Positions 17,701 through 59,108 of a stretch of DNA of 64,000 bases are shown here, one piece after another. A program made the translations under genes and the position numbers. The notes under the pieces were generated by a model that saw only the letters and a list, made by a program, of their open reading frames with translations, ran no database searches and was not told the origin of the DNA. How positions within the stretch are numbered: position 1 is the stretch's first letter; the number at the start of each line of letters is the position of its first letter. This DNA is from Mobula hypostoma (lineage: Eukaryota): positions 158,536,001-158,600,000 of the forward strand of contig NC_086097.1 of NCBI RefSeq assembly GCF_963921235.1, written 5' to 3'.

Positions 17701-17790
17701 GTTGTAGTAGGTGATTATAACTTTCCACTCAACACACATCAAAGTTGCTGGTGAACGCAGCAGGCCAGGCAGCATCTATAGGAAGAGGCG

Positions 17791-17828
17791 CAGTCGACGT
17801 TTCAGGCCGAGACCCTTCGTCAGGACTA
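17791..17828 (-). ncRNA. Minimal type-I hammerhead ribozyme in the PLE terminal repeat
   Basis: Minus strand reads tagtc-CTGACGA-agggtctcggcct-GAAA-c-GTC-gactg: stem I agtc/gact, intact core, palindromic ACGT in place of stem III. Confidence 0.75.
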
Positions 17829-18123
17829 ACTGAAGGAAGAGTGAGTAAGGGATTTGAAAGTTGGAGGGGGAGGGGGAGATGCAAAATGATAGGTAGGAGA
17901 AGACAGGAGGGGGAGGGATAGAGCCGAGAGCTGGACAGGTGATAGGCAAAAGGGGATACGAGAGGATCATGGGACAGGAGGTCCGGGAAGAAAGACGGGG
18001 GGGGGTGACCCAGAGGATGGGCAAGAGTTATATTCAGAGGGACAGAGGGAGAAAAAGGAGAGTGAGAGAAAGAATGTGTGCATAAAAATGAGTAACAGCT
18101 GGGGTACGAGGGGGAGGTGGGGC

Positions 18124-19487
18124 CTAGCGGAAGTTAGAGAAGTCAATGTTCATGCCATCAGGTTGGAGGCTACCCAGACGGAATATAAGGTGTTGTTCCT
18201 CCAACCTGAGTGTGGCTTCATCTTTACAGTAGAGGAGGCCGTGGATAGACATGTCAGAATGGGAATGGGATGTGGAATTGTGTGGCCACTGGGAGATCCT
18301 GCTTTCTCTGGCGGACAGAGCGTAGATGTTCAGCAAAGCGGTCTCCCAGTCTGCGTCAGGTCTCACCAATATATAAAAGGCCACATCGGGAGCACCGGAT
18401 GCAGTATATCACCCCAGTCGACTCACAGGTGAAGTGATGCCTCACCTGGAAGGACTGTTTGGGGCCCTGAATGGTGGTAAGGGAGGAAGTGTAAGGGCAT
18501 GTGTAGCACTTGTTCCGCTTACAAGGATAAGTGCCAGGAGGGAGATCAGTGGGGAGGGATGGGGGGGACGAATGGACAAGGGAATTGTGTAGGGAGCGAT
18601 CCCTGCGGAATGCAGAGAGAGGTGGGGAGGGAAAGATGTGCTTAGTGGTGGGATCCCGTTGGAGGTGGCGGAAGTTGCGGAGAATAATATGTTGGACCCG
18701 GAGGCTGGTGGGGTGGTAGGTGAGGACCAGGGGAACCCTATTCCTAGTGGGGTGGTGGGAGGATGGAGTGAGAGCAGATGTACGTGAAATGGGGGAGATG
18801 CGTTTAAGAGCAGAGTTGATAGTGGAGGAAGGGAAGCCCCTTTCTTTAAAAAATGAAGACATCTCCCTCGTCCTAGAATGAAAAGCCTCATCCTGAGAGC
18901 AGATGCGGCGGAGCCGGAGGAATTGCGAGAAGGGGATGGCGTTTTTGCAAGAGACAGGGTGAGAAGAGGAATAGTCCAGATAGCTGTGAGAGTCAGTAGG
19001 CTTATAGTAGACATCAGTGGATAAGCTGTCTCCAGAGACAGAGACAGAAAGATCTAGAAAGGGGAGGGAGGTGTCGGAAATGGACCAGGTAAACTTGAGG
19101 GCAGGGTGAAAGTTGGAGGCAAAGTTAATAAAGTCAACGAGTTCTGCATGCGTGCAGGAAGCAGCGCCAATGGAGTCGTCGATGTAGCGAAGGAAAAGTG
19201 GGGGACAGATACCAGAATAGGCACGGAACATAGATTGTTCCACAAACCCAACAAAAAGGCAGGCATAGCTAGGACCCATACGGGTGCCCATAGCTACACC
19301 TTTAGTTTGGAGGAAATGGGAGGAGCAAAAGGAGAAATTATTAAGAGTAAGGACTAATTCCGCTAGACGGAGCAGAGTGGTGGTAGAGGGGAACTGATTA
19401 GGTCTGGAATCCAAAAAGAAGCGTAGAGCTTTGAGACCTTCCTGATGGGGGATGGAAGTATATAAGGACTGGACATCCATGGTGAAA
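18124..19487 (-). pseudogene. PLE RT/GIY-YIG ORF with a premature stop and a frameshift
   Basis: ORF 18356-19504 stops at GET*, likely CGA>TGA, then continues RRLGDRFAEHLRSV; a small deletion near 18280 shifts the frame to NSTSHSHSDMSIHGL. The N-terminal MGVSVN is antisense CR1 flank. Confidence 0.88.
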
Positions 19488-19524
19488 TTGACTGAGACTC
19501 CCATGCTGTAAAATGACTAGATGC

Positions 19525-19660
19525 AATAGAGAAGATAAAATCTGCAGATGCTGGAAATCCAAGCAACACACACATAAAATGCTGCAGGAACTCAGCAGGC
19601 CAGGCAGCATCTATGGAAAAAAGCACAGTTGACGTTTCGGGCCAAAACTGTTCGGCAGCT
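19525..19660 (-). mobile_element. Penelope terminal-repeat fragment
   Basis: tctgcagatgctggaaatcc...aactcagcaggccaggcagcatctatgg...cagttgacgtttcgggcc; degenerate hammerhead. Confidence 0.75.
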
Positions 19661-19785
19661 GGAGTTTGTTAAATGTGTTCAAGAAAGTTTTCTTAATCAG
19701 TACATAGAAGTCCCACTGAGAGAGTCCACTTGATCTCCTATAAGGGAATGAGGCAGGGCAGATGATAAAAGTTTGTTTAGCGCGC

Positions 19786-20255: not shown

Positions 20256-20436
20256 CAAACACGTGCAACATGCTGGAGGAACTCAGCAGGTCGGGCAGCA
20301 TCCATGGAAATGAACAGTCAACATTTCGGGCCGAGACCCTTTGTCAGGACTGAAGAGGGAGGGGGCATGGGCCCTATAAAGGAGGTGGGGGGAGGGTGGG
20401 AAGGAGAAGGCTGGTAGGTGCCAGGGGAAAAACCAG

Positions 20437-21311
20437 TGTTACGTACCCCGTAACTGGGTTGCCAAACCAGCAGAAATGGATCACTCAGTTGGAGTCTGGA
20501 GTACTAGAACTAAGAAAGTTTTATTAAAGAAACGAGCAACACAGTAATCGAAAGGATAATAAATGCAACAGTTCAGCGATGATAAACGCACATGTGCACA
20601 GAATTAAGATAACAGCATCAATCAAGCTCTATCGTTGTCTAGGGGTAAATGACCAAATTTCAAAATGACTCAAAGTTCAGTCCAGTTGAGTTCGCAGTAA
20701 TCGTTGCCATGGCGATGGACAACGTGGGGGAAGAGAGAGATAGAATAGGAACAACTGATCATTCAGAACACTGCTTCACTCACAGACCAGCGAGATGGCT
20801 CACAGACCAGCGAGATGGCTCACAAACAGCTTTTGGGCGGGTCCTTGGTGATGTCACCTGAGGTCACCGACTGTGACCCCTCCTCCAGATGCGGTCGATC
20901 CTCTGCAGTGAACCCGGCACCCAGGCAAGGGCGGACACACACCGGGTTCCCGCTGATCGTACCTTTCCACCCTTGTCGTTGTCTGGTGCTTCTCACCCAC
21001 TCGTGAGAGGCGCACCGCTTCCAGGGTCTCGTTACCTCGGGTGGCGTGTGTGTCTGTCTTAGCGAACCTGTCCCTTTTTATCCCCCTGCTGGGGTATCGC
21101 CTGTCCATCACTTCAAACAGTTCAGGGTTCAAAGGGGGGAGCCGCTCCAGACAGCTCTCTCTCCCACATCCCTTCATTACACATCTCCAGACGCTGCTCC
21201 ATTGTTCCTTATCTCTCCTTGCCCTGAGGGCAGGTGGCAGACCAACTGCTGATGCCACTGATGCTAGCCCAGGCCAGCAAACATCTTAATTTTATGTGTA
21301 TTCTCGTAACA
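20437..21311 (-). mobile_element. Solo LTR (Gypsy-type, 875 bp)
   Basis: TGTTACG...CGTAACA inverted termini; 4-bp TSD CCAG at 20433-20436 and 21312-21315; minus-strand TATA-like gataaaaa near 21075 and AATAAA near 20520. Confidence 0.85.
20781..20820. repeat. 20-bp tandem duplication inside the solo LTR
   Basis: cacagaccagcgagatggct x2, exact. Confidence 0.9.
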
Positions 21312-21702
21312 CCAGTAAGGGGAAAGATCAAGCGGTGGGGGAGGAGATAGGCAGGAAAGGTGAAGAAGGAATAGGGGGAAGCACAATGGGTAGTAGATGG
21401 AGGTGGAACCATGAGGGAGGTGATAGGCGGCTGGAGGAGGGGGCAGAATGAAACTGGAATGGGGGAAGGGAGGGGCAGGGAATTACCGGAAGTTGGAGAA
21501 TTCAATGTTCATGCCAAGGGGCTGGAGACTACCCAGACGGTATATGAGGTGTTGCTCCTCCAACCTGAGTTTGGAGACCACAGCAACTGCTCCAACTACA
21601 GAGGCAACTACTCTTGCAGTCCCAAGAAAAGTCTTCTGCAAGATAATTCTAGAAAGGATGAAGGAGAAGGTAGCTGTAGATGAACAAGATGTTTTCTGCA
21701 AG

Positions 21703-25431: not shown

Positions 25432-25831
25432 GAAACCTCATACTGTCTGGGTAGTCTCCAGCCCCTTAGCACGAACATTGAATTCTCCAACTTCTGGTAA
25501 ATCCCTCCCCTTCCTCTCCCGCTCCTTTCCCCCATCCCAGTTTCACTCTGCCCCTCCCCCAGCTGCATATCACCTCCCTCATGGTTCCGTCTCCTTCTAC
25601 TACCATTGTGCTTTCCCCTATTCCTTCTTCACCTTTCCTGCCCATCCCCTCCCCCACCCCTTGATCATTCCCCTCACTGGTGTTTCACCTGGCACCTACC
25701 AGCCCTCTCCTTCCCACCCTCCCTCCACCTTCTTTATAGGGCTTCTGCCCCCTCCCTCTTCAGTCCTGATGAAGGGTCTCGGCCCGAAATGTTGCCTGTT
25801 TGTTTCCACGGATGCTGCCTGATCTGCTGAG
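25432..25831 (+). mobile_element. Penelope 3' fragment (inverted partner of 20257-21574)
   Basis: YCLGSLQPLSTNIEFSNFW*; hammerhead-like cagtcctgatgaagggtctcggcccgaaatgttg at 25761. Confidence 0.85.
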
Positions 25832-25978
25832 ATACAGCTTGGCACCGGTGTCGTCACAGAGCAATGTGTGCTTAAGTGCCTTGCTCAGGGACACAGCACA
25901 CTGCCTCAGCTGAGGCTCAAACTAGTGACCTTCAGATCACTAGACCAACGCCTTAACCACTTGGCCACACGCCAACAC
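25832..25978 (-). mobile_element. tRNA-derived SINE 5' part
   Basis: Minus strand: A box TGGCCAAGTGG, degenerate B box GTTTGAGCC, then gtgtccctgagcaaggcacttaa. Confidence 0.7.
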
Positions 25979-48228: not shown

Positions 48229-49089
48229 TGTTATGAATTCAATAGTTCAGTAATATTTAAGTAATATTGAAAATATATTATTTCAAGTCAAGTCAAGTCA
48301 CTTTTTATTGTCATTTTGACCATAACTGCTGGTACAGCACACAGTAAAAACGAGACAACGTTTCTCAGGACCATGGTGCTACATGAAACAATACAAAAAC
48401 TACACTAGACTACAGACCTACCCAGGACTGCATAAAGTGCACAAAACAGTGCAGGTATTACAATAAATAATAAACAAGACAATAGGCACAGTAGAGGGCA
48501 GTAGGTTAGTGCTAGTCTAGGCTCTGGGTATTAAGGAGTCTGATGGCTTGGGGGAAGAAACTGTTACATAGTCTGGTCATGAGAGCCTGAATGCTTCAGT
48601 GCCTTTTGCCAGATGGCAGGAGGGAGAAGAGTTTGTATGAGGAGTGCATGTGGTCCTTCATAATGCTGTTTGCTTTGCGGATGTAGCGTGTGGTGTAAAT
48701 GTCTATAATGGCGGGAAGAGAGACCCCGATGATCTCCTCAGCTGAGCTCACTATCCGCTGCAGGGTCTTGCGATCCAAGATGGTGCAATTTCCGAACTAG
48801 GCAGTGATGCAGCTGCTCAGGATGCTCTCAATACAACCTCTGTAGAATGTGGTGAGGATGGGGGTTGGGAGATGGACTTTTCTCAGTCTTCGCAGAAAGA
48901 GAGACGCTGCTGGGCTTTCTTTGTTTGAGTATTCTTGTTTTATAAATACTTTATTATGGATTATATATATAAATAATTGAATTGCATACGTTGTGACACT
49001 ACCTCACTTAAATTAAAACTTAAGTTGGATTCACATTTTGGTCTTTTCCTTTTAATTAGTTTAATGTGTTGGCGTTACAAAACGTAACA
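48229..49089 (+). mobile_element. Gypsy 3' LTR, split by Rex1
   Basis: TGTTA...TAACA termini, immediately after the polypurine tract. Confidence 0.7.
48284..48922 (-). mobile_element. Rex1 3' fragment with (GACTT)n tail
   Basis: DRKTLQRIVSSAEEIIGVSLP..LFSLLPSGKRH; caagtcaagtcaagtca tail. Confidence 0.85.
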
Positions 49090-52233: not shown

Positions 52234-52853
52234 CAAAGTTCAAAGTAGATGTACTGTCAAAGTATGTGTACTGTATGTAACCTTGAAGTTTGTCTCCTTA
52301 CTGGCAAATAGTGTAAGCAATAAAAGTAAGCAAATAACATTGCAAAGTGAAGTTCATGAAGGTAAGTTCACGGCCACGAAGCCAGTCACAGGAGATGCAG
52401 GAGCCCATTAGTTGCAGGACACAGCCACAGTTCAGCGCAGAGATGAATAAACATTGTCGAGCAGCGAGCTGAACACAGGCCCATCCCTCACCTCCGGCCC
52501 CAGCGCTCTGACCTTCTCAATCTGGCCCAGTGCTTAAATCAGCCAAACACTGGGTTGTTCCTCTCCCTTGGATATGCTCTTGGGCCCAGGACCCACTGTC
52601 TTGATTCAACCCGTATCTGACCTTTACAACCTGGTCCAATGCTTAAATTGGTCAAACATTGGTTCGTTCCTTGCTCTTGGGCCCGGGGCCCATCACACAA
52701 AATGCCACACTGTCCTGTACCTTTGAGATTTCAGTTTACATTGCAAAAGTGCCAGGTCTTACAGGCAGTTCAAAAGCTCAAAAAAGTGTGATTAGTAGAG
52801 TAGTTAGTAGGTTTGCTTGTGCCAGTAAGTTGTACTTCACCAGTGCCATCTTA
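52234..52853 (-). mobile_element. Non-autonomous retroposon with Rex1-type tail
   Basis: Minus-strand 5' end taagatggcactgg; tail aaagttcaaagtagatg; CR1 continuous on both sides. Confidence 0.6.
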
Positions 52854-53405: not shown

Positions 53406-54504
53406 ATCAAGCTCTGCTTTAAGTATACTCAATGACTAGGCCTCCACAACCATCTGTGGCATAGATTCACTACCCTCTGACTAAAGAAATTACTCCACAC
53501 TTCTGTTCTAAATCAACATCCCTCTATTCTGAAGCTGTGCGCTCTTGTCCTGGACAATCCCACTATAGGAAACATCCTCTCCACACCCACTTGATCTGTG
53601 CCTTTCAGTATTTGGGTTCCAATGAGATCCCCCTCATTCTTCTAAACTCCAGTGAGTACAGGCCCAGAGTCATCAAATGCTCCTCATATGTTCACCCTTT
53701 CATTCCCGGAATCATCCTCATGAATGCCAGCACTACTTTTCACAGATAAGGAGCCCAAAGCTGATCACAATACTCCAAGTCTGGTCTGTCCATGCCTTAT
53801 AAAGCCTTGCTCTTATATTCTCGATCTCTTGAAATGAATGATAACATTGCATGTAGCTTTCTACCGCTGAGTCAACCTGCAAGAAAACCTTAAGGGAATC
53901 CTGCATGAGGGCTCCCAAAATCCTCTGCACCTCTGGATTTTGAATTTTCTCCCCTTATAGAAAATAGCCTATGTCTTTATTCCTTCTACCAAGGTGTATG
54001 ACCACATAATTCCCTACACTATATTCTGTCTGCCATTCAATTCCATCATCCAAATTATTGGTGTATATCGTGCAAAGAAGCTGTCCCAACACTGACCTTG
54101 GAAGAACACCACACGTCACTGGCAGCCAACTAGAAAAGGCCCCCTTTATTTCTATTCTTTGTCTCCTATGCTGGTATCTTTCCTGTCACACTATGGGCTC
54201 TTATCTTGTTAAACAGCTTCATGTGCAACACCTTGTCAAAGGCTTTCTGAAAATACAAGTAAACAACTTCACCTGACTCTCCTTTGTCAATCCTGCTTGT
54301 TATTTCCTCAAAGAATTCCAACAGATTTGTCAGACAAGATATCCCCTTAAGGAAACCATGCTGACTTTAAAGATCATTAATAATACCTCCACAAGCTCTT
54401 CAGCTACTTCTTTCAGAACCCTGGGGCATAGACCATCTGGTCCAGGTGACTTATCTACCTTCAGACGTTTCAGCTTCCCAAGCACCTTCTCCATAGCAAT
54501 AGCA

Positions 54505-54780
54505 ATAACACACAAAATGATGGAGGAACTCAGCTGGTCAGGTAGCGTCTATGGGAATGAATAAACAGTTGACAGTAGTTCTAAATAGTCTTCCTTCCCC
54601 TCCCCCCCAACTTTTTATTCTGGTGTCTTCCCTCCTTCTTTTCCAGTCCTGAAGAGGTGGCTCGGCTCCTAATGTTGACTGTTTATTCTTCTCCGTAGAT
54701 ATTGCCTGACCTGCTGAATTCCTCCATCATTTTGTGTGTATTGCTCTGGATTTCCAACATCTTCAGAACCTCTTGTGTTT
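54505..54780. mobile_element. Penelope fold-back mini-element with ~9-bp TSD
   Basis: Short minus arm plus a plus arm with degenerate hammerhead; flanks gcaatagca (54496-54504) and gtaatagca (54781-54789). Confidence 0.7.
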
Positions 54781-55542
54781 GTAATAGCAGCTACACCCAT
54801 CTCTGACATTTTTGAAATTCTGCCTTACTGCTAGTGTCTTCTCCAGTGAAGACCGATGCAAAATACTTAAGCTCATCCACTATTTCTTTGTCTCTCATTA
54901 CTACCTCTCCAGCATCATTTCCCGGCGGTGTGATATACACTCTCACCTTCGTTTTATTCTTTATATATCTGAAAAGGCTTTTGGTATCCTCTTTTATATT
55001 ATTGTCTAGCTCACCTTCATATTTCTTTTTTCTCTACTTGTGGCTTTTTTAATTACCTTCAGTTAGTTTTTAAAAGCTTCCCAACCCGCTGACTTATGAC
55101 TAATTTTTGCTCTATTATTTGCCCTCTCTTATTATTGAGGACAGGAGATCAATTAGCATTAGTGGGGGGAGAAAGAGTCCTTGTTTCAGGTCATCAGAAA
55201 TAAGTAAGCATGAAAGCATGTTTGTTTTAAATTGCTGTGTAGTGTAAGCCTGGGGAGACCAGACTAGTGCTGATTGAAATGTCAACATAGTAATTATCTG
55301 CAAAAATTCAGCAGAGACGAAAGAAAAAATAAAAGAGATAGTCGGAGTTATGTCAATGGAAAGAGAAAAATGAGGGGTTGTTACCTGCAATAGTTGAATT
55401 CAATTTTAAGTCGCAAAAGCTGCAAAGTGTCCAGATGAGAGATTATTTGTTTTCCTTGAGCATTCATTGGGCATCGTTGGAGCTATGGTGGAGGGTGAAG
55501 GTGGAGAAATGAAAGTGGGAGTGGGGCAGAGAACTAAAATGA

Positions 55543-56222
55543 AATTTGCTGGTGAACGCAGCAGGCCAGGCAGCATCTCTAGGAAGAGATACAGTCGGCG
55601 TTTCGGGCCGAGACCCTTCGTTAGGACTAACTGTAGGAAGAGCTAGTAAGAGATTTGAAAATGGGAGGGGGAGGGGGAGATCCAAAATGATAGGAGAAGA
55701 CAGGAGGGGGAGGGATGGAGCCAAGAGCTGGACAGGTGATTGGCAAAAGGAATATGAGAGGATCATGGGACAGGAGGCCCGGGGAGAAGGAACAGGGGGA
55801 GGGGGGGGAAACGGAGGATGGGTCAGAGGGACAGAGGGAGAAAAAAGAGAGAGAGAAAAAGAATGTGTGTATATAAATAAATAACGGATGGGGTACAAGG
55901 GGGAGGTGGGGCATTAGCGGAAGTTAGAGAAGTCAATGTGCATGCCATCTGGTTGGAGGCTACCCAGACGGAATATAAGGTGTTCCTCCAACCTGAGTGT
56001 GTCTATCCACGGCCTCCTCTACTGTAAAGATGGATCTCCCCCTCCCCCTCCCACTTTCAAATCTCTTACTAGCTCTTCCTTCAGTTAGTCCTGACGAAGG
56101 GTCTCGGCCCGAAACGTCGACTGTACCTCTTCCTAGAGATGCTGCCTGGCCTGCTGCATTCACCAGCAACTTTGATGTGTGTTGCTTCAATTTCCAGCAT
56201 TTGCAGAATTCCTCGTGTTCAC
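55543..56222. mobile_element. Young Penelope inverted (fold-back) insertion with 17-bp TSD
   Basis: TSD gcagagaactaaaatga at 55526-55542 and 56223-56239; minus arm to ~56000, short inverted linker to ~56032, then plus arm. Confidence 0.9.
56086..56123 (+). ncRNA. Minimal type-I hammerhead ribozyme, intact core
   Basis: tagtc-CTGACGA-a-gggtctcggccc-GAAA-c-GTC-gactg; predicted cleavage after C56118. Confidence 0.8.
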
Positions 56223-58298
56223 GCAGAGAACTAAAATGATAGGATCTTCTGGGTAGATTTGTGCAAATCAGAAGCCCAATTTGCATTTTGTTTCTCTAGT
56301 GTAAAGGAGACCACATTGTGAATACAAGCCTGGTACATTAAAAAGGAAAAACTGCATGTGATTTGCTGATTATTTGGAAGGAATAATTGGGTCACAAGAT
56401 AATAGAAAGGAAAAGGATAGAAAGGCAGGTGTTACCACTCCCCTGGTTATATAGAAGACTGTTTAGAAAAAAGTGGTAGATGGAGATGAACCAGGAAATC
56501 ACCAAGGAAGTGATGTTTTTAGAATCATGAGATGAGAGGGGAGGGTATGTTTGCTGGTGGAGATTGTTGGCATCTCCAAGATGTTTGAATTTGTTCAACA
56601 TTATAGACGAGAAAATAATCCAGATAACACATCTGTTTGTGTCAGTGAATGGAAGAGTGCAGCAGTATGGTGAATAAATTACTCAGCTGATATCCACAAA
56701 CCTGGATTATCATCCCAGAGATGATCTAACCTGTTTCTTGTCTCACATGATTATTCATCACAGGCTGCCAGATACTTAAAACAGATTTGTTAAGCATCTT
56801 TCATGCATTGAATGATAAATAATTATGAGGTTTTTAGTTTGAACTGGCTGTAATGAAACATATCATCAATGTTATTTCCAAGCTAATACCAAAATAAGAG
56901 ATAAGACAGATCGAAACAAATCACCAGCAAAAACACTTCCATTTTCTAGAATCTGTGAATGACTCTGAAATTGGTTAGAAATATAAAGGGAGACTTCATT
57001 ATTCTGTGTGGCCAGTGGCTCATGTGTCACTGTATTTGCTTTGTCTTATCACAATGCAGAGTGGCCAAGCACTGCACAGCATTCCATTTTTCAGTTGTGA
57101 AATCATTATATTCTATCCCACTGTTGTTTTTAGTTCAATGTTCTGAAAGGTAAATTCAGAACATATTTAGTTTCTTGCAATATCACATTTCAACCATACA
57201 TAGAAGAGTAGTAAAAAAAAATACCCCTTTCATCAAACAAGATATGGAAAATTGGCACACTCAGCTATTCAGAGAACACAGAGGTTAGCTTTGGCCCATT
57301 GCATCATTGTTTCTTCTTGGAAAGCATCAACTAAATCAATTCAAGATACATCAGATAAGGCTAAAATGTGCCATTTCTCAAATACTTTTCATATCCCTCA
57401 AATCAAACTATATCAATCCCCAAATCTTTCTCTTGCCTGAGAAAATGATTTAAAATCGTTATCTCGCAAACGTCCCTCTGAAATACAAAGGAGGGAGACT
57501 GGATATGTATCGCTCAATTTATGAGTCTGTATGCTATTACTGGCAGGGCTTTCGGCAGGGATTCAGATCATGGAGACGCTTGTGGAGTTTAAGCGCAGAT
57601 TTCAAAAGTGAGCAGAGCCTGTTGGAATTTTCTGTGGAGATTTTGATTGTTTGTGTTGTTAGACACTTGGCAAGGGCCAATAAAAAGAAGTTTGGTTTAA
57701 GTAGAGCAGCCATTATGGGAGAGGCCATTGTTGGAGTGGGATCCCAGGGTTAGAGTCTGACACAGAGGCTTTGGCGAGGAGAGGTGGAGGTTTCTGTCAA
57801 GTTTCTCTTTTTTTGTCTATTAGTGCCTAGCTAGAGTAGTGAGAATGGATTCCTCATACAGTGTGTGTGCTCCTCATACAAGATATGGAAAATCTCGGAA
57901 CTCTTCAGTCTCTCAGATTGCTACATCTGTGAGAAGTGAAACTGGGTGCAACTCCTTTCAGACTGTGTTTGGGAAATGGAGCTGGATGACCTTAAGATCA
58001 TTCGGGAAATTAAGGCGATGATAGGTACAGAGTTCCAGGGAGGTTGTCACACCTAAGTTGCAGAGGCTGGTTGCGAGGTGAGTATCGGGAGAGGGAACAG
58101 GAGTAGGCAGCCAGTGCAGAGTACCCCTTTAGTTGTTCCCCTTAATAATAAGTACTGCTTTGGATACTGTTTTGGTGGTGGTGGGGTGGTGTAAATGACC
58201 TACCAGGGGAAAATCTGCAGCGGCTACGTTTCTGACACTGAGTTTGGCTCTGTACCTTAGAAGGAAAGCAATGGGTGTTGGGGGGGAGTGGCCGTGAT

Positions 58299-59108
58299 TA
58301 ATTTATTATTAATTAATGGCTCCGTCTATCTAAGTAGACAATGGATGCACCTGGTTTTCCGGGGCGCAGACCTGGGTGATGAATATGGAGATCCTGGGCT
58401 GCCCAGATATCAAGATCCCCCTCTCAGCCTCGCGGATGTGGTCCAAAGGAATGTGAAGGTCTCTGGGATTTCCCATATCTTGCATGAGGAACACACACAC
58501 ACTGACTACTACATAATGTACTGGTTGGGCACAGGAGAACATTCAACCAGAGACTCATTCCACCGAGATGCAACACAGAGTGTCATAGGAAGTCATTCCT
58601 GCCTGTGACCATCAAACGTTACAACTCTTCCCTTGGAGGGTCAGACACCCTGAGCCAATAGGCTGGTCCTGGACTTATTTCCTGGCATAATTTGCATATT
58701 ACTATTTAGCTATTTATGGCTTTATTACTATTTAATTATTTATGGTGCAACTGTAACGAAAACCATTTCCCCCCGGGATCAATAAAGTATGACTATGACT
58801 ATGACTATGACAATGACTATAACTATGAAGCAGTACATTTGGCATCTGCTTGGCTGCAGGAGCTGCTGGGAGGTGATGTGATACGTCATCCAACTGCCAC
58901 AGGGGCTCCACTCCGAATTTGTGTAGGGTTTACTCCTTAGTCTTCTCTTCTCCCGAAGATACCCACAAGGCAGTGGGATCCGTAACCCTGGACAGGGGCC
59001 CATACCGGATACTGTCAGCCGGAGCCAGCTGAGCCCGGGACTTGTGTAAGGCAGGGTCATCACGCCCTGTAGTAGTGACATATGGAGCCACTACCCGCTA
59101 CCCATAAT
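58299..59108 (-). mobile_element. Non-autonomous RTE derivative (5' UTR fused to 3' tail)
   Basis: Tail tggctccgtctatctaagtagacaatggatgcac resembles the RTE end at 29061; flanked by gtgat (58294-58298 and 59109-59113); CR1 ORF1 is continuous across it. Confidence 0.6.
58459..58825 (+). mobile_element. Rex1-like 3' fragment with (GACTAT)n tail
   Basis: HNVLVGHRRTFNQRLIPPRCNTECHRKSFLPVTIKRYNS; aataaag then (tatgac)n; flanks tgaag at 58454-58458 and 58826-58830. Confidence 0.75.

What the first reader, a model, noticed from the sequence alone, without database searches (positions are those of the whole stretch)
56086..56123. Intact minimal hammerhead ribozyme in a Penelope terminal repeat
Seen: stem I (agtc/gact, plus a U-G pair), core CUGACGA, stem II gggt/gccc preceded by one extra A, GAAA, then C-GUC. 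Stem III is replaced by the palindrome ACGU. Established: PLE terminal repeats carry such minimal type-I hammerheads, which are proposed to cleave as dimers. Inference: this copy could self-cleave after C56118 if transcribed on the plus strand, including within a host pre-mRNA.
Basis: partly seen in the sequence, partly recalled or inferred. Interest (0 to 1): 0.75.

Follow-up and report, generated by a model that had tools for sequence, protein, structure and literature searches.

The report
Locked hammerhead in fold-back Penelope stub
The 38 flagged bases are a complete copy of the tiny self-cutting RNA motif that Penelope-type jumping genes are known to carry, but here it sits in a broken, hairpin-shaped leftover insertion whose mirror arm is predicted to pair over it, so it is likely inert and ordinary.

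Summary
Observation confirmed base by base: a minimal type I hammerhead at 56086-56123 (+). It lies in the right arm of a 680-bp fold-back insertion (55543-56222, 17-bp target duplication). The family is a Neptune-type Penelope-like element: a copy at 17730-19516 joins the same repeat to an RT, CX4CXXC linker and GIY-YIG/CCHH frame. Relatives from other animals carry the same motif just after the ORF, and stems I and II covary, so the motif is real. The functional inference is weak here. The monomer cannot close stem III and misfolds. There is no sense-strand partner within 30 kb, and the mirror copy is antisense and broken (G5A, U16.1C). A + strand read-through RNA is predicted to bury the motif in a ~140-bp hairpin. 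No host exon was found. "Intact" equals the family majority sequence. This is a known class (PMC4209133), and the scan has noted it many times in this and other genomes. Interest 0.14.

The parts
56086..56123 (+). Minimal type I hammerhead motif, all 16 core and closing positions intact; predicted cut between 56118 and 56119
   Evidence: sequence; (53.4 bits with model R1, which was built with this copy in it)
56086..56090 (+). Stem I 5' strand (pairs with 56119-56123)
   Evidence: covariation of pairs 1-3 across relatives
56091..56098 (+). Core C3-A9 plus the extra A between 9 and 10.1
   Evidence: extra A invariant in 13 of 13 rows of alignment A2
56099..56110 (+). Stem II (4 bp) with 4-nt loop
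56111..56118 (+). G12-A14, palindrome A15.1-C-G-U16.1 in place of stem III, C17
   Evidence: palindrome invariant in 13 of 13 rows of A2
56031..56222 (+). Right arm: 3' part of the pseudo-LTR, ending in a ~50-nt tail (about 56173-56222) that the left arm lacks
   Evidence: 94% to the family copy at 17730-17883 (-)
56000..56032 (+). 33-nt piece of the endonuclease frame, adjoining in family coordinates the point where the left arm starts, but inverted
   Evidence: 33 of 33 identical to 18219-18251
55543..56004 (-). Left arm: last ~30 codons of the endonuclease frame (stop at 55914), 3' UTR and pseudo-LTR
   Evidence: 86% to 17738-18217
55592..55629 (-). Mirror hammerhead copy, broken (G5A at 55622, U16.1C at 55598); on the + strand it is the antisense lock of the flagged motif, both differences being G-U wobbles in the hairpin
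55526..55542 (+). Target-site duplication, left copy (17 bp)
   Evidence: the 17-mer occurs exactly twice in the window; lead from e1-9302833
56223..56239 (+). Target-site duplication, right copy (17 bp)
17730..19516 (-). Reference copy of the same family elsewhere in the window: 5'-truncated RT, CX4CXXC linker, GIY-YIG frame (18356-19516; a stop and a frameshift in the endonuclease part), 3' UTR, hammerhead at 17791-17828 with G10.1-U11.1

Best explanation
The motif is the standard minimal hammerhead of a Neptune-type Penelope-like retroelement, carried in the right arm of a truncated fold-back insertion, and at this locus it is likely inert because read-through RNA is predicted to pair it with the mirror arm and it has no sense-strand partner. 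Shown: the motif, the two arms, the 17-bp duplication, the link of the repeat to an RT plus GIY-YIG frame, and stem covariation across related elements. Inferred: in the active parent element two motifs of a tandem transcript pair through ACGU, swap stem I strands and cut after C17, probably with help from the element's protein. This copy was written into the genome in one retrotransposition event, as two head-to-head cDNA arms. It still matches the family majority because it has taken few mutations, not because it is selected.
For: Family link: the same repeat follows an RT/CX4CXXC/GIY-YIG/CCHH frame at 17730-19516; nearest named proteins are from Mobula and Hypanus rays at 77-95%. Motif is under structural selection in the clade: 20 of 39 related loci with >=200 nt after the endonuclease have the core 54-151 nt downstream, found with no pairing requirement (shuffles: 0.025 loci per round); stem I pairs 1-3 are paired in 19, 18 and 17 of 19 distinct motifs against shuffle means 9.6, 13.2 and 7.6. 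Lock: 55500-56260 folds at -395 kcal/mol, z -12.7; for RNAs starting at 55400 or 55500, P(stem I) = P(stem II) = 0 and the motif is paired to the left arm with P 1.0; the motif-antisense duplex is -91 kcal/mol. Monomer: G5-A6-C7-G8 pairs with C15.2-G16.2-U16.1-C17 (P 0.98); the double hammerhead scores -16.7 against -25.8 for two misfolded monomers. No partner: the nearest + strand copy with a near-complete core is 30 kb upstream (25761, C15.2U). Intact = majority: among the 40 listed differences, no position of the motif has a majority letter other than this copy's. Literature: monomer inactive, dimer weak (PMC4209133, parts 1-2 read); protein needed, cleavage dispensable in vitro, no RNA-seq ends at the cut (PMC11167929, parts 1-2 read); 1 of 9 Xenopus dimers cleaved (bioRxiv 10.64898/2026.07.22.740005, parts 1-3 read).
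Against: This is the only one of 12 window copies with every core position intact, and 5 of the 6 arm differences lie in the left arm (two-sided binomial p about 0.22 by hand, not significant). An RNA that starts inside the right arm escapes the lock: starting at 56082, stems I and II form with P 0.8-0.97, though the core is still mispaired. Nearest-neighbour energies ignore tertiary core contacts and protein help. 19 of 39 related loci lacked the core (not examined why), and the covariation counts are not corrected for relatedness. No cleavage assay and no raw RNA reads were available.
Confidence: 0.85

Rival explanations
1. The right arm is transcribed from its own pseudo-LTR promoter, starting near the foot of the motif, so it escapes the antisense arm and is cut in trans by pairing through ACGU with abundant family RNA, with or without the element's protein.
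For: Without the left arm, stems I and II can form. The family is very abundant (summed contig depth about 1e7 against about 15 in unique flanks; not a copy number). In run X10 (RNA by guess) the depth relative to DNA run X1 is about 0.036 over the motif and about 0.08 from 56150 on. PLE promoters lie in the pLTR (review PMC6765202, passage read).
Against: The right arm holds only the last ~190 nt of the repeat and no promoter was shown. The core still mispairs in the short RNA. Contigs cannot show RNA ends or strand; the depth step begins near 56130, where subfamilies diverge (loose ends behind 56122-56126), so a transcribed subfamily explains it as well. No ends at the cut site in Anolis RNA-seq (PMC11167929).
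Confidence: 0.08
2. One reading: the motif cuts a host pre-mRNA that reads through on the + strand.
For: Core intact. G exceeds C on the + strand in all eight 8-kb bins outside repeats (0.02-0.25), a weak hint of + strand transcription. Co-transcriptional folding could let the 38-nt motif form briefly before the long hairpin.
Against: The antisense arm is made first and is predicted to pair the motif fully. A monomer lacks stem III. No host exon: 210 frames scanned against Pfam gave only RT pieces, one ALKBH8_N hit and weak coiled-coil or unknown-function hits. T-A skew is near zero. The insertion appears shared with a related species, so it is tolerated.
Confidence: 0.04
3. The motif is kept for a job other than cutting, such as a protein-binding or reverse-transcription landmark of the element's RNA, and cleavage is incidental even in the active parent.
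For: Catalytic mutants do not affect insertion in vitro (PMC11167929). In organism A about half of the family depth has U at C11.1, the closing pair of stem II (49% in X1 against 10-11% in X9 and X13 and 7-16% at other CpG positions), so a subfamily with G10.1-U11.1 likely amplified well. Naiad and most Chlamys PLEs lack the motif (PMC8557442, passages).
Against: The catalytic core is nearly invariant across distant families while stems covary, the pattern expected of selection on catalysis. G10.1-C11.1 is kept in 18 of 19 distinct motifs. The effect of G-U at that pair in this motif is untested.
Confidence: 0.2

Closest known systems
Minimal type I hammerheads (min-HHR) in pLTRs of metazoan Penelope-like elements (Cervera and De la Pena 2014, PMC4209133; main-text parts 1-2 read, supplement file 2 searched)
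   Same: Type I; stem I 4-5 bp; extra nucleotide between 9 and 10.1; G10.1-C11.1; palindromic 15.2-16.2 with no loop 3; in PLE terminal repeats; mostly single copies, and pairs 100-700 bp apart on opposite strands are described; reported in Xena, Poseidon and Neptune elements of fishes.
   Different: Stem II is 4 bp (the Schistosoma form has 7-8). Host is likely a myliobatiform ray; no shark or ray term was found in the searched supplement file or in two literature searches.
EN+ Penelope-like elements, Neptune type (Craig et al. 2021, PMC8557442; passages read)
   Same: RT followed by a CX2-5CxxC linker and a GIY-YIG endonuclease with CCHH; 5' truncation; inverted truncated copy giving terminal inverted repeats; tail at one end only.
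   Different: This unit has lost nearly all of the ORF, has a ~50-nt rather than 30-40-nt tail, a 17-bp target duplication and a 33-nt inverted ORF piece at the centre. Clade was assigned by motif, not by tree.
PAc, Poseidon of Anolis carolinensis (Frangieh et al. 2024, PMC11167929; parts 1-2 read)
   Same: pLTR hammerhead lacking stem III; tail after the motif.
   Different: Poseidon clade, no Cys linker; its motif was assayed (protein-assisted, dispensable in vitro), this one was not.
Non-LTR retrozymes (PMC7229834, passages read; bioRxiv 10.64898/2026.07.22.740005, parts 1-3 read)
   Same: Type I hammerhead in a non-coding repeat related to PLE terminal repeats; one cartilaginous fish in the preprint's sample has them.
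   Different: Retrozymes are direct tandem repeats with two or more complete motifs. This is an inverted pair with one intact motif.

Membership tests
PLE minimal hammerhead (min-HHR) | Core CUGANGA ... GAAA ... UH in type I order | tested here: met
   56091-56097, 56111-56114, 56117-56118
PLE minimal hammerhead (min-HHR) | Extra nucleotide between 9 and 10.1, and G10.1-C11.1 | tested here: met
   A56098; G56099-C56110
PLE minimal hammerhead (min-HHR) | No helix III loop; palindromic 15.2-16.2 | tested here: met
   ACGU 56114-56117; invariant in 13 of 13 rows
PLE minimal hammerhead (min-HHR) | Compensatory changes in stems I and II among relatives | tested here: met
   motifs picked by core only; 13 rows picked with pairing, so biased: score 0.80, shuffles 0.21, slid controls 0.07-0.12
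PLE minimal hammerhead (min-HHR) | Lies in a PLE terminal repeat | tested here: met
   290-301 nt after the ORF stop in the left arm and in the 17730-19516 copy
PLE minimal hammerhead (min-HHR) | Self-cleavage as a dimer | not testable with these tools
   needs an in vitro assay; folding predicts mispairing
EN+ PLE, Neptune type | RT followed by C-terminal GIY-YIG endonuclease with CCHH | tested here: met
   In the family copy 18124-19516: weak RVT_1 hit (E 5e-4, below cut-off); YIGET motif and invariant C, C, H, H columns; homologues carry PF00078 and PF01541. Not in the flagged unit, which keeps only ORF scraps.
EN+ PLE, Neptune type | CX2-5CxxC linker (absent in Penelope/Poseidon) | tested here: met
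   C331-x4-C336-x2-C339; definition from PMC8557442. Naiad and Terminon endonucleases share it but differ in domain order or RT; Nematis has a reduced linker.
EN+ PLE, Neptune type | RT groups with named Neptune references in a tree | not tested
   no named reference set was fetched
EN+ PLE insertion unit | Inverted 5'-truncated copy and one-sided tail | tested here: met
   arms 55543-55684 / 56031-56172; tail only on the right
Non-LTR retrozyme (active) | At least two consecutive direct repeat units, each with a complete motif | tested here: not met
   one intact motif; the second is inverted and broken
Rfam hammerhead families | Score at gathering threshold | tested here: not met
   the Rfam scan did not pick up this minimal form, which says nothing against the min-HHR class

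The most novel reading that the evidence does not exclude
This family's hammerhead is cut in living ray cells, and solo stubs like this one, fired from their own terminal repeat just ahead of the motif, are cut in trans by pairing through ACGU with the mass of family RNA. The doubling of RNA-type contig depth just downstream of the cut site would be its trace. That would be in vivo cleavage of a Penelope minimal hammerhead, which the papers read here did not find, and would make tens of thousands of stubs potential trans-cut sites.
Probability: 0.07. Interest if true: 0.6.

Novelty: new member of a known kind. Interest (0 to 1): 0.14.

Why it matters
As a locus it matters little: it is one ageing copy among very many, of a class described in 2014. 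The family is of some use for an open question, what the Penelope hammerhead is for. Two leads came up. About half of the family in this species carries G-U at the stem II closing pair, a natural test of whether cutting is needed to spread. And RNA-type contig depth steps up just after the predicted cut site, which raw RNA reads with end mapping could confirm or dismiss.

Tried and rejected
Rfam: no hit at gathering score; two chance hits at E<=10. Viral contigs: 71 pattern matches, none confirmed. Host gene: Pfam scans of 18, 118 and 74 frames (most but not all of the 224 low-repeat frames of 60 aa or more, shorter exons not covered) gave RT pieces, one ALKBH8_N hit at 48800-49003 that I read as a LINE piece (recalled, untested) and weak hits; absence of a gene is not shown. 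Expression: no RNA holder listed. Run X10 (RNA by guess) has two flank contigs with no differences (52341-52748, 57244-57409), but contigs give no strand or ends and may be DNA. The one GT..AG joint among the 15 shown of about 2,870 (58453-58826) is also in DNA runs. The state of the motif at the orthologous site in organism B could not be read, since no listed contig spans it. Selection on the right arm: 5 to 1 split of arm differences is not significant. Chance motif: rejected. Active retrozyme: rejected, no direct tandem. One search used a structure string shifted by one column and is void; one search is the corrected count. Lunse, Weinberg and Breaker (RNA Biol 14:1499; dimers) is not held; I know it only from the citing review and its title. 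Supplements of the bioRxiv preprint were not seen and may list the cartilaginous-fish families; supplement file 1 of PMC4209133 was not searched.

Full report
Observation. A min-HHR descriptor finds 2 motifs in the window, this one and one at 17823 (-), against 0.045 per window and none with a palindrome in 200 Markov simulations. Rfam has no match.

Setting. The motif is in the right arm of a fold-back unit at 55543-56222, flanked by a 17-bp duplication (55526-55542, 56223-56239) that occurs exactly twice in the window (the lead came from note e1-9302833). The left arm (55543-56004, -) is the 3' end of the element: the last codons of the ORF, the 3' UTR and the terminal repeat. A 33-nt ORF piece (56000-56032, +) follows, then the right arm with a tail of about 50 nt that the left arm lacks. 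The arms share about 140 bp and differ at 6 of 139 positions in 56031-56169, two of them in the left arm's hammerhead core (G5A, U16.1C). Inverted truncated copies with a one-sided tail are the described form of PLE insertions (PMC8557442, Fig. 2 legend).

Family. The same repeat (86-94% alike) follows a 386-codon frame at 18356-19516 (-). It has a weak RT hit, a C-x4-C-x2-C linker, a YIGET motif and, in relatives, the CCHH residues. By the definitions in PMC8557442 this is a Neptune-type element; I did not build a tree. Of 1181 homologues, the closest named ones are from Mobula hypostoma and Hypanus sabinus (77-95%), then sharks, then marine invertebrates at about 50%, so the host is likely a myliobatiform ray. 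The window holds 12 recognisable copies of the motif; this is the only one with all 16 core and closing positions, and one more differs only by C11.1 to U.

Is the motif under selection? Across the clade, yes. Of 80 related loci from metagenome contigs (best 80 of 383), 43 had a detectable endonuclease end and 39 of those had 200 nt or more after it. In 20 of the 39 the core, sought with no pairing requirement, lay 54-151 nt downstream; shuffles gave 0.025 loci per round. Among 19 distinct motifs (18 from loci plus this one), stem I pairs 1-3 were paired in 19, 18 and 17 (shuffle means 9.6, 13.2, 7.6), pair 4 in 10 (6.9) and pair 5 in 6 (6.6); stem II pairs in 18, 19, 19 and 15. A 13-row alignment chosen with pairing, and so biased, gave double-sided changes in 8 of 9 pairs and a score of 0.80 against 0.07-0.12 for slid controls. 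Relatedness is not corrected, and 19 of 39 loci had no core. Within the ray family the listed variation in the motif is mostly CpG decay of 7-16% per site, and this copy has the majority letter at each listed position (40 of 51 rows shown). So 'intact' is the family's default state and is no sign of selection at this site.

Age. Contigs of a related organism (run X5, 1.6-1.9% different in the flanks) end at nearly the same places as those of the window's likely species and run 32 nt into the right end and 26 nt into the left end of the unit. Only the right junction meets the tool's 31-letter rule. The insertion is therefore likely older than that split.

Would it cut? In the parent element, two motifs in a tandem transcript would pair through ACGU and swap stem I strands (model in PMC4209133; L004 shows direct repeats 3066 nt apart). 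Here three things stand in the way. First, a monomer cannot close stem III, and it is predicted to pair G5-G8 with C15.2-C17 (P 0.98); the double hammerhead scores -16.7 kcal/mol against -25.8 for two such monomers (secondary structure only). Second, the nearest sense-strand copy with a near-complete core is 30 kb upstream and has lost the palindrome. Third, any + strand RNA that enters from upstream makes the antisense arm first; 55500-56260 folds at -395 kcal/mol (z -12.7), with stems I and II at P 0 and the motif paired to the left arm at P 1.0. Only an RNA starting inside the right arm escapes, and its core still mispairs. Published data agree: no monomer activity and weak dimer activity (PMC4209133); protein needed, cutting dispensable for insertion in vitro and no RNA-seq ends at the cut (PMC11167929); 1 of 9 Xenopus dimers cleaved (bioRxiv 10.64898/2026.07.22.740005).

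Host pre-mRNA. Not shown. Pfam scans of 210 frames found retroelement pieces and no clear host exon; short or unmodelled exons would be missed. A + strand G-over-C skew is only a hint.

Against my reading. It is the best-kept copy in the window, and the left arm took 5 of the 6 changes (p about 0.22 by hand). In one RNA-type run, contig depth relative to DNA doubles from about 56130 on. That fits RNA ends near the cut, but contigs cannot show ends, and subfamilies diverge at the same place.

Novelty. The class is known, including in fish Neptune elements and as opposite-strand pairs 100-700 bp apart (PMC4209133). Searches for Penelope with cartilaginous and hammerhead ribozyme and for Penelope, shark, ray, genome, Neptune found no paper in the held library, so the ray family may be undescribed there; most subscription journals and Repbase were not searched. 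The scan has met the same thing before: 1838 notes in this genome fit 'hammerhead Penelope', and like loci were reported in other genomes. Verdict: a real motif, a new member of a known kind, likely inert at this site. Interest 0.14.

Noticed in passing
window 56110 (family-wide); window 17787-17832 (-): C11.1, the closing pair of stem II, reads U in 49% of summed depth in run X1 and 61% in X10, against 10-11% in two other organisms and 7-16% at other CpG positions; the partner G of that CpG changes in only 10%. A subfamily with G10.1-U11.1 likely amplified in this species.
   Followed up: partly
window 56126-56160 (family-wide): Depth in RNA-type run X10 relative to DNA run X1 rises from 0.035 to 0.08 just after the predicted cut site. 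RNA ends or a transcribed subfamily; contigs cannot tell.
   Followed up: partly
window 55990-56040: Centre of the fold-back: a 33-nt ORF piece adjoins, in family coordinates, the start of the left arm but is inverted, then jumps about 335 nt into the terminal repeat at a short shared word. It looks like twin priming plus a template switch (subject of e1-9302833).
   Followed up: partly
window 17730-19660 (-): 1.8-kb 5'-truncated family copy with a long open RT frame sits directly behind the tail of an older-type terminal repeat (19538-19663), a partial tandem of two subfamilies; its endonuclease part has a stop and a frameshift.
   Followed up: partly
window 54496-54790: A second, older fold-back pair of the same repeat (54501-54578 with 54669-54745), both motifs decayed, 750 bp upstream of the flagged unit.
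   Followed up: no
window 20258-20440 and 21308-21574, 25435-25833: An older-subfamily PLE end appears split by an ~870-bp insert (about 20440-21308) that looks like a retroviral-type LTR with TG...CA ends; read by eye, not tested.
   Followed up: no
L001:1087(-)/3582(+); L058:2343(-); L004:1028/4094(+): Related elements from other animals show the same inverted upstream repeat (L001, L058) or direct repeats 3066 nt apart with the same motif (L004).
   Followed up: partly
window 56093-56096 with 56115-56118: With C7 and C17 the core is self-complementary (GACG with CGUC), giving an inactive rod in monomers; families with A7 or U7 would be less locked. It could act as a built-in off state.
   Followed up: partly
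P0001, P0003: Family ORF pieces are annotated in ray genomes as isoforms of host genes (chitinase domain-containing protein 1, divergent protein kinase domain 1C), likely mis-annotated or exonised PLE copies.
   Followed up: no
window 48800-49003 (-): ALKBH8_N Pfam hit (E 6.5e-10) over 25 residues; probably a LINE fragment (recalled), not checked.
   Followed up: no
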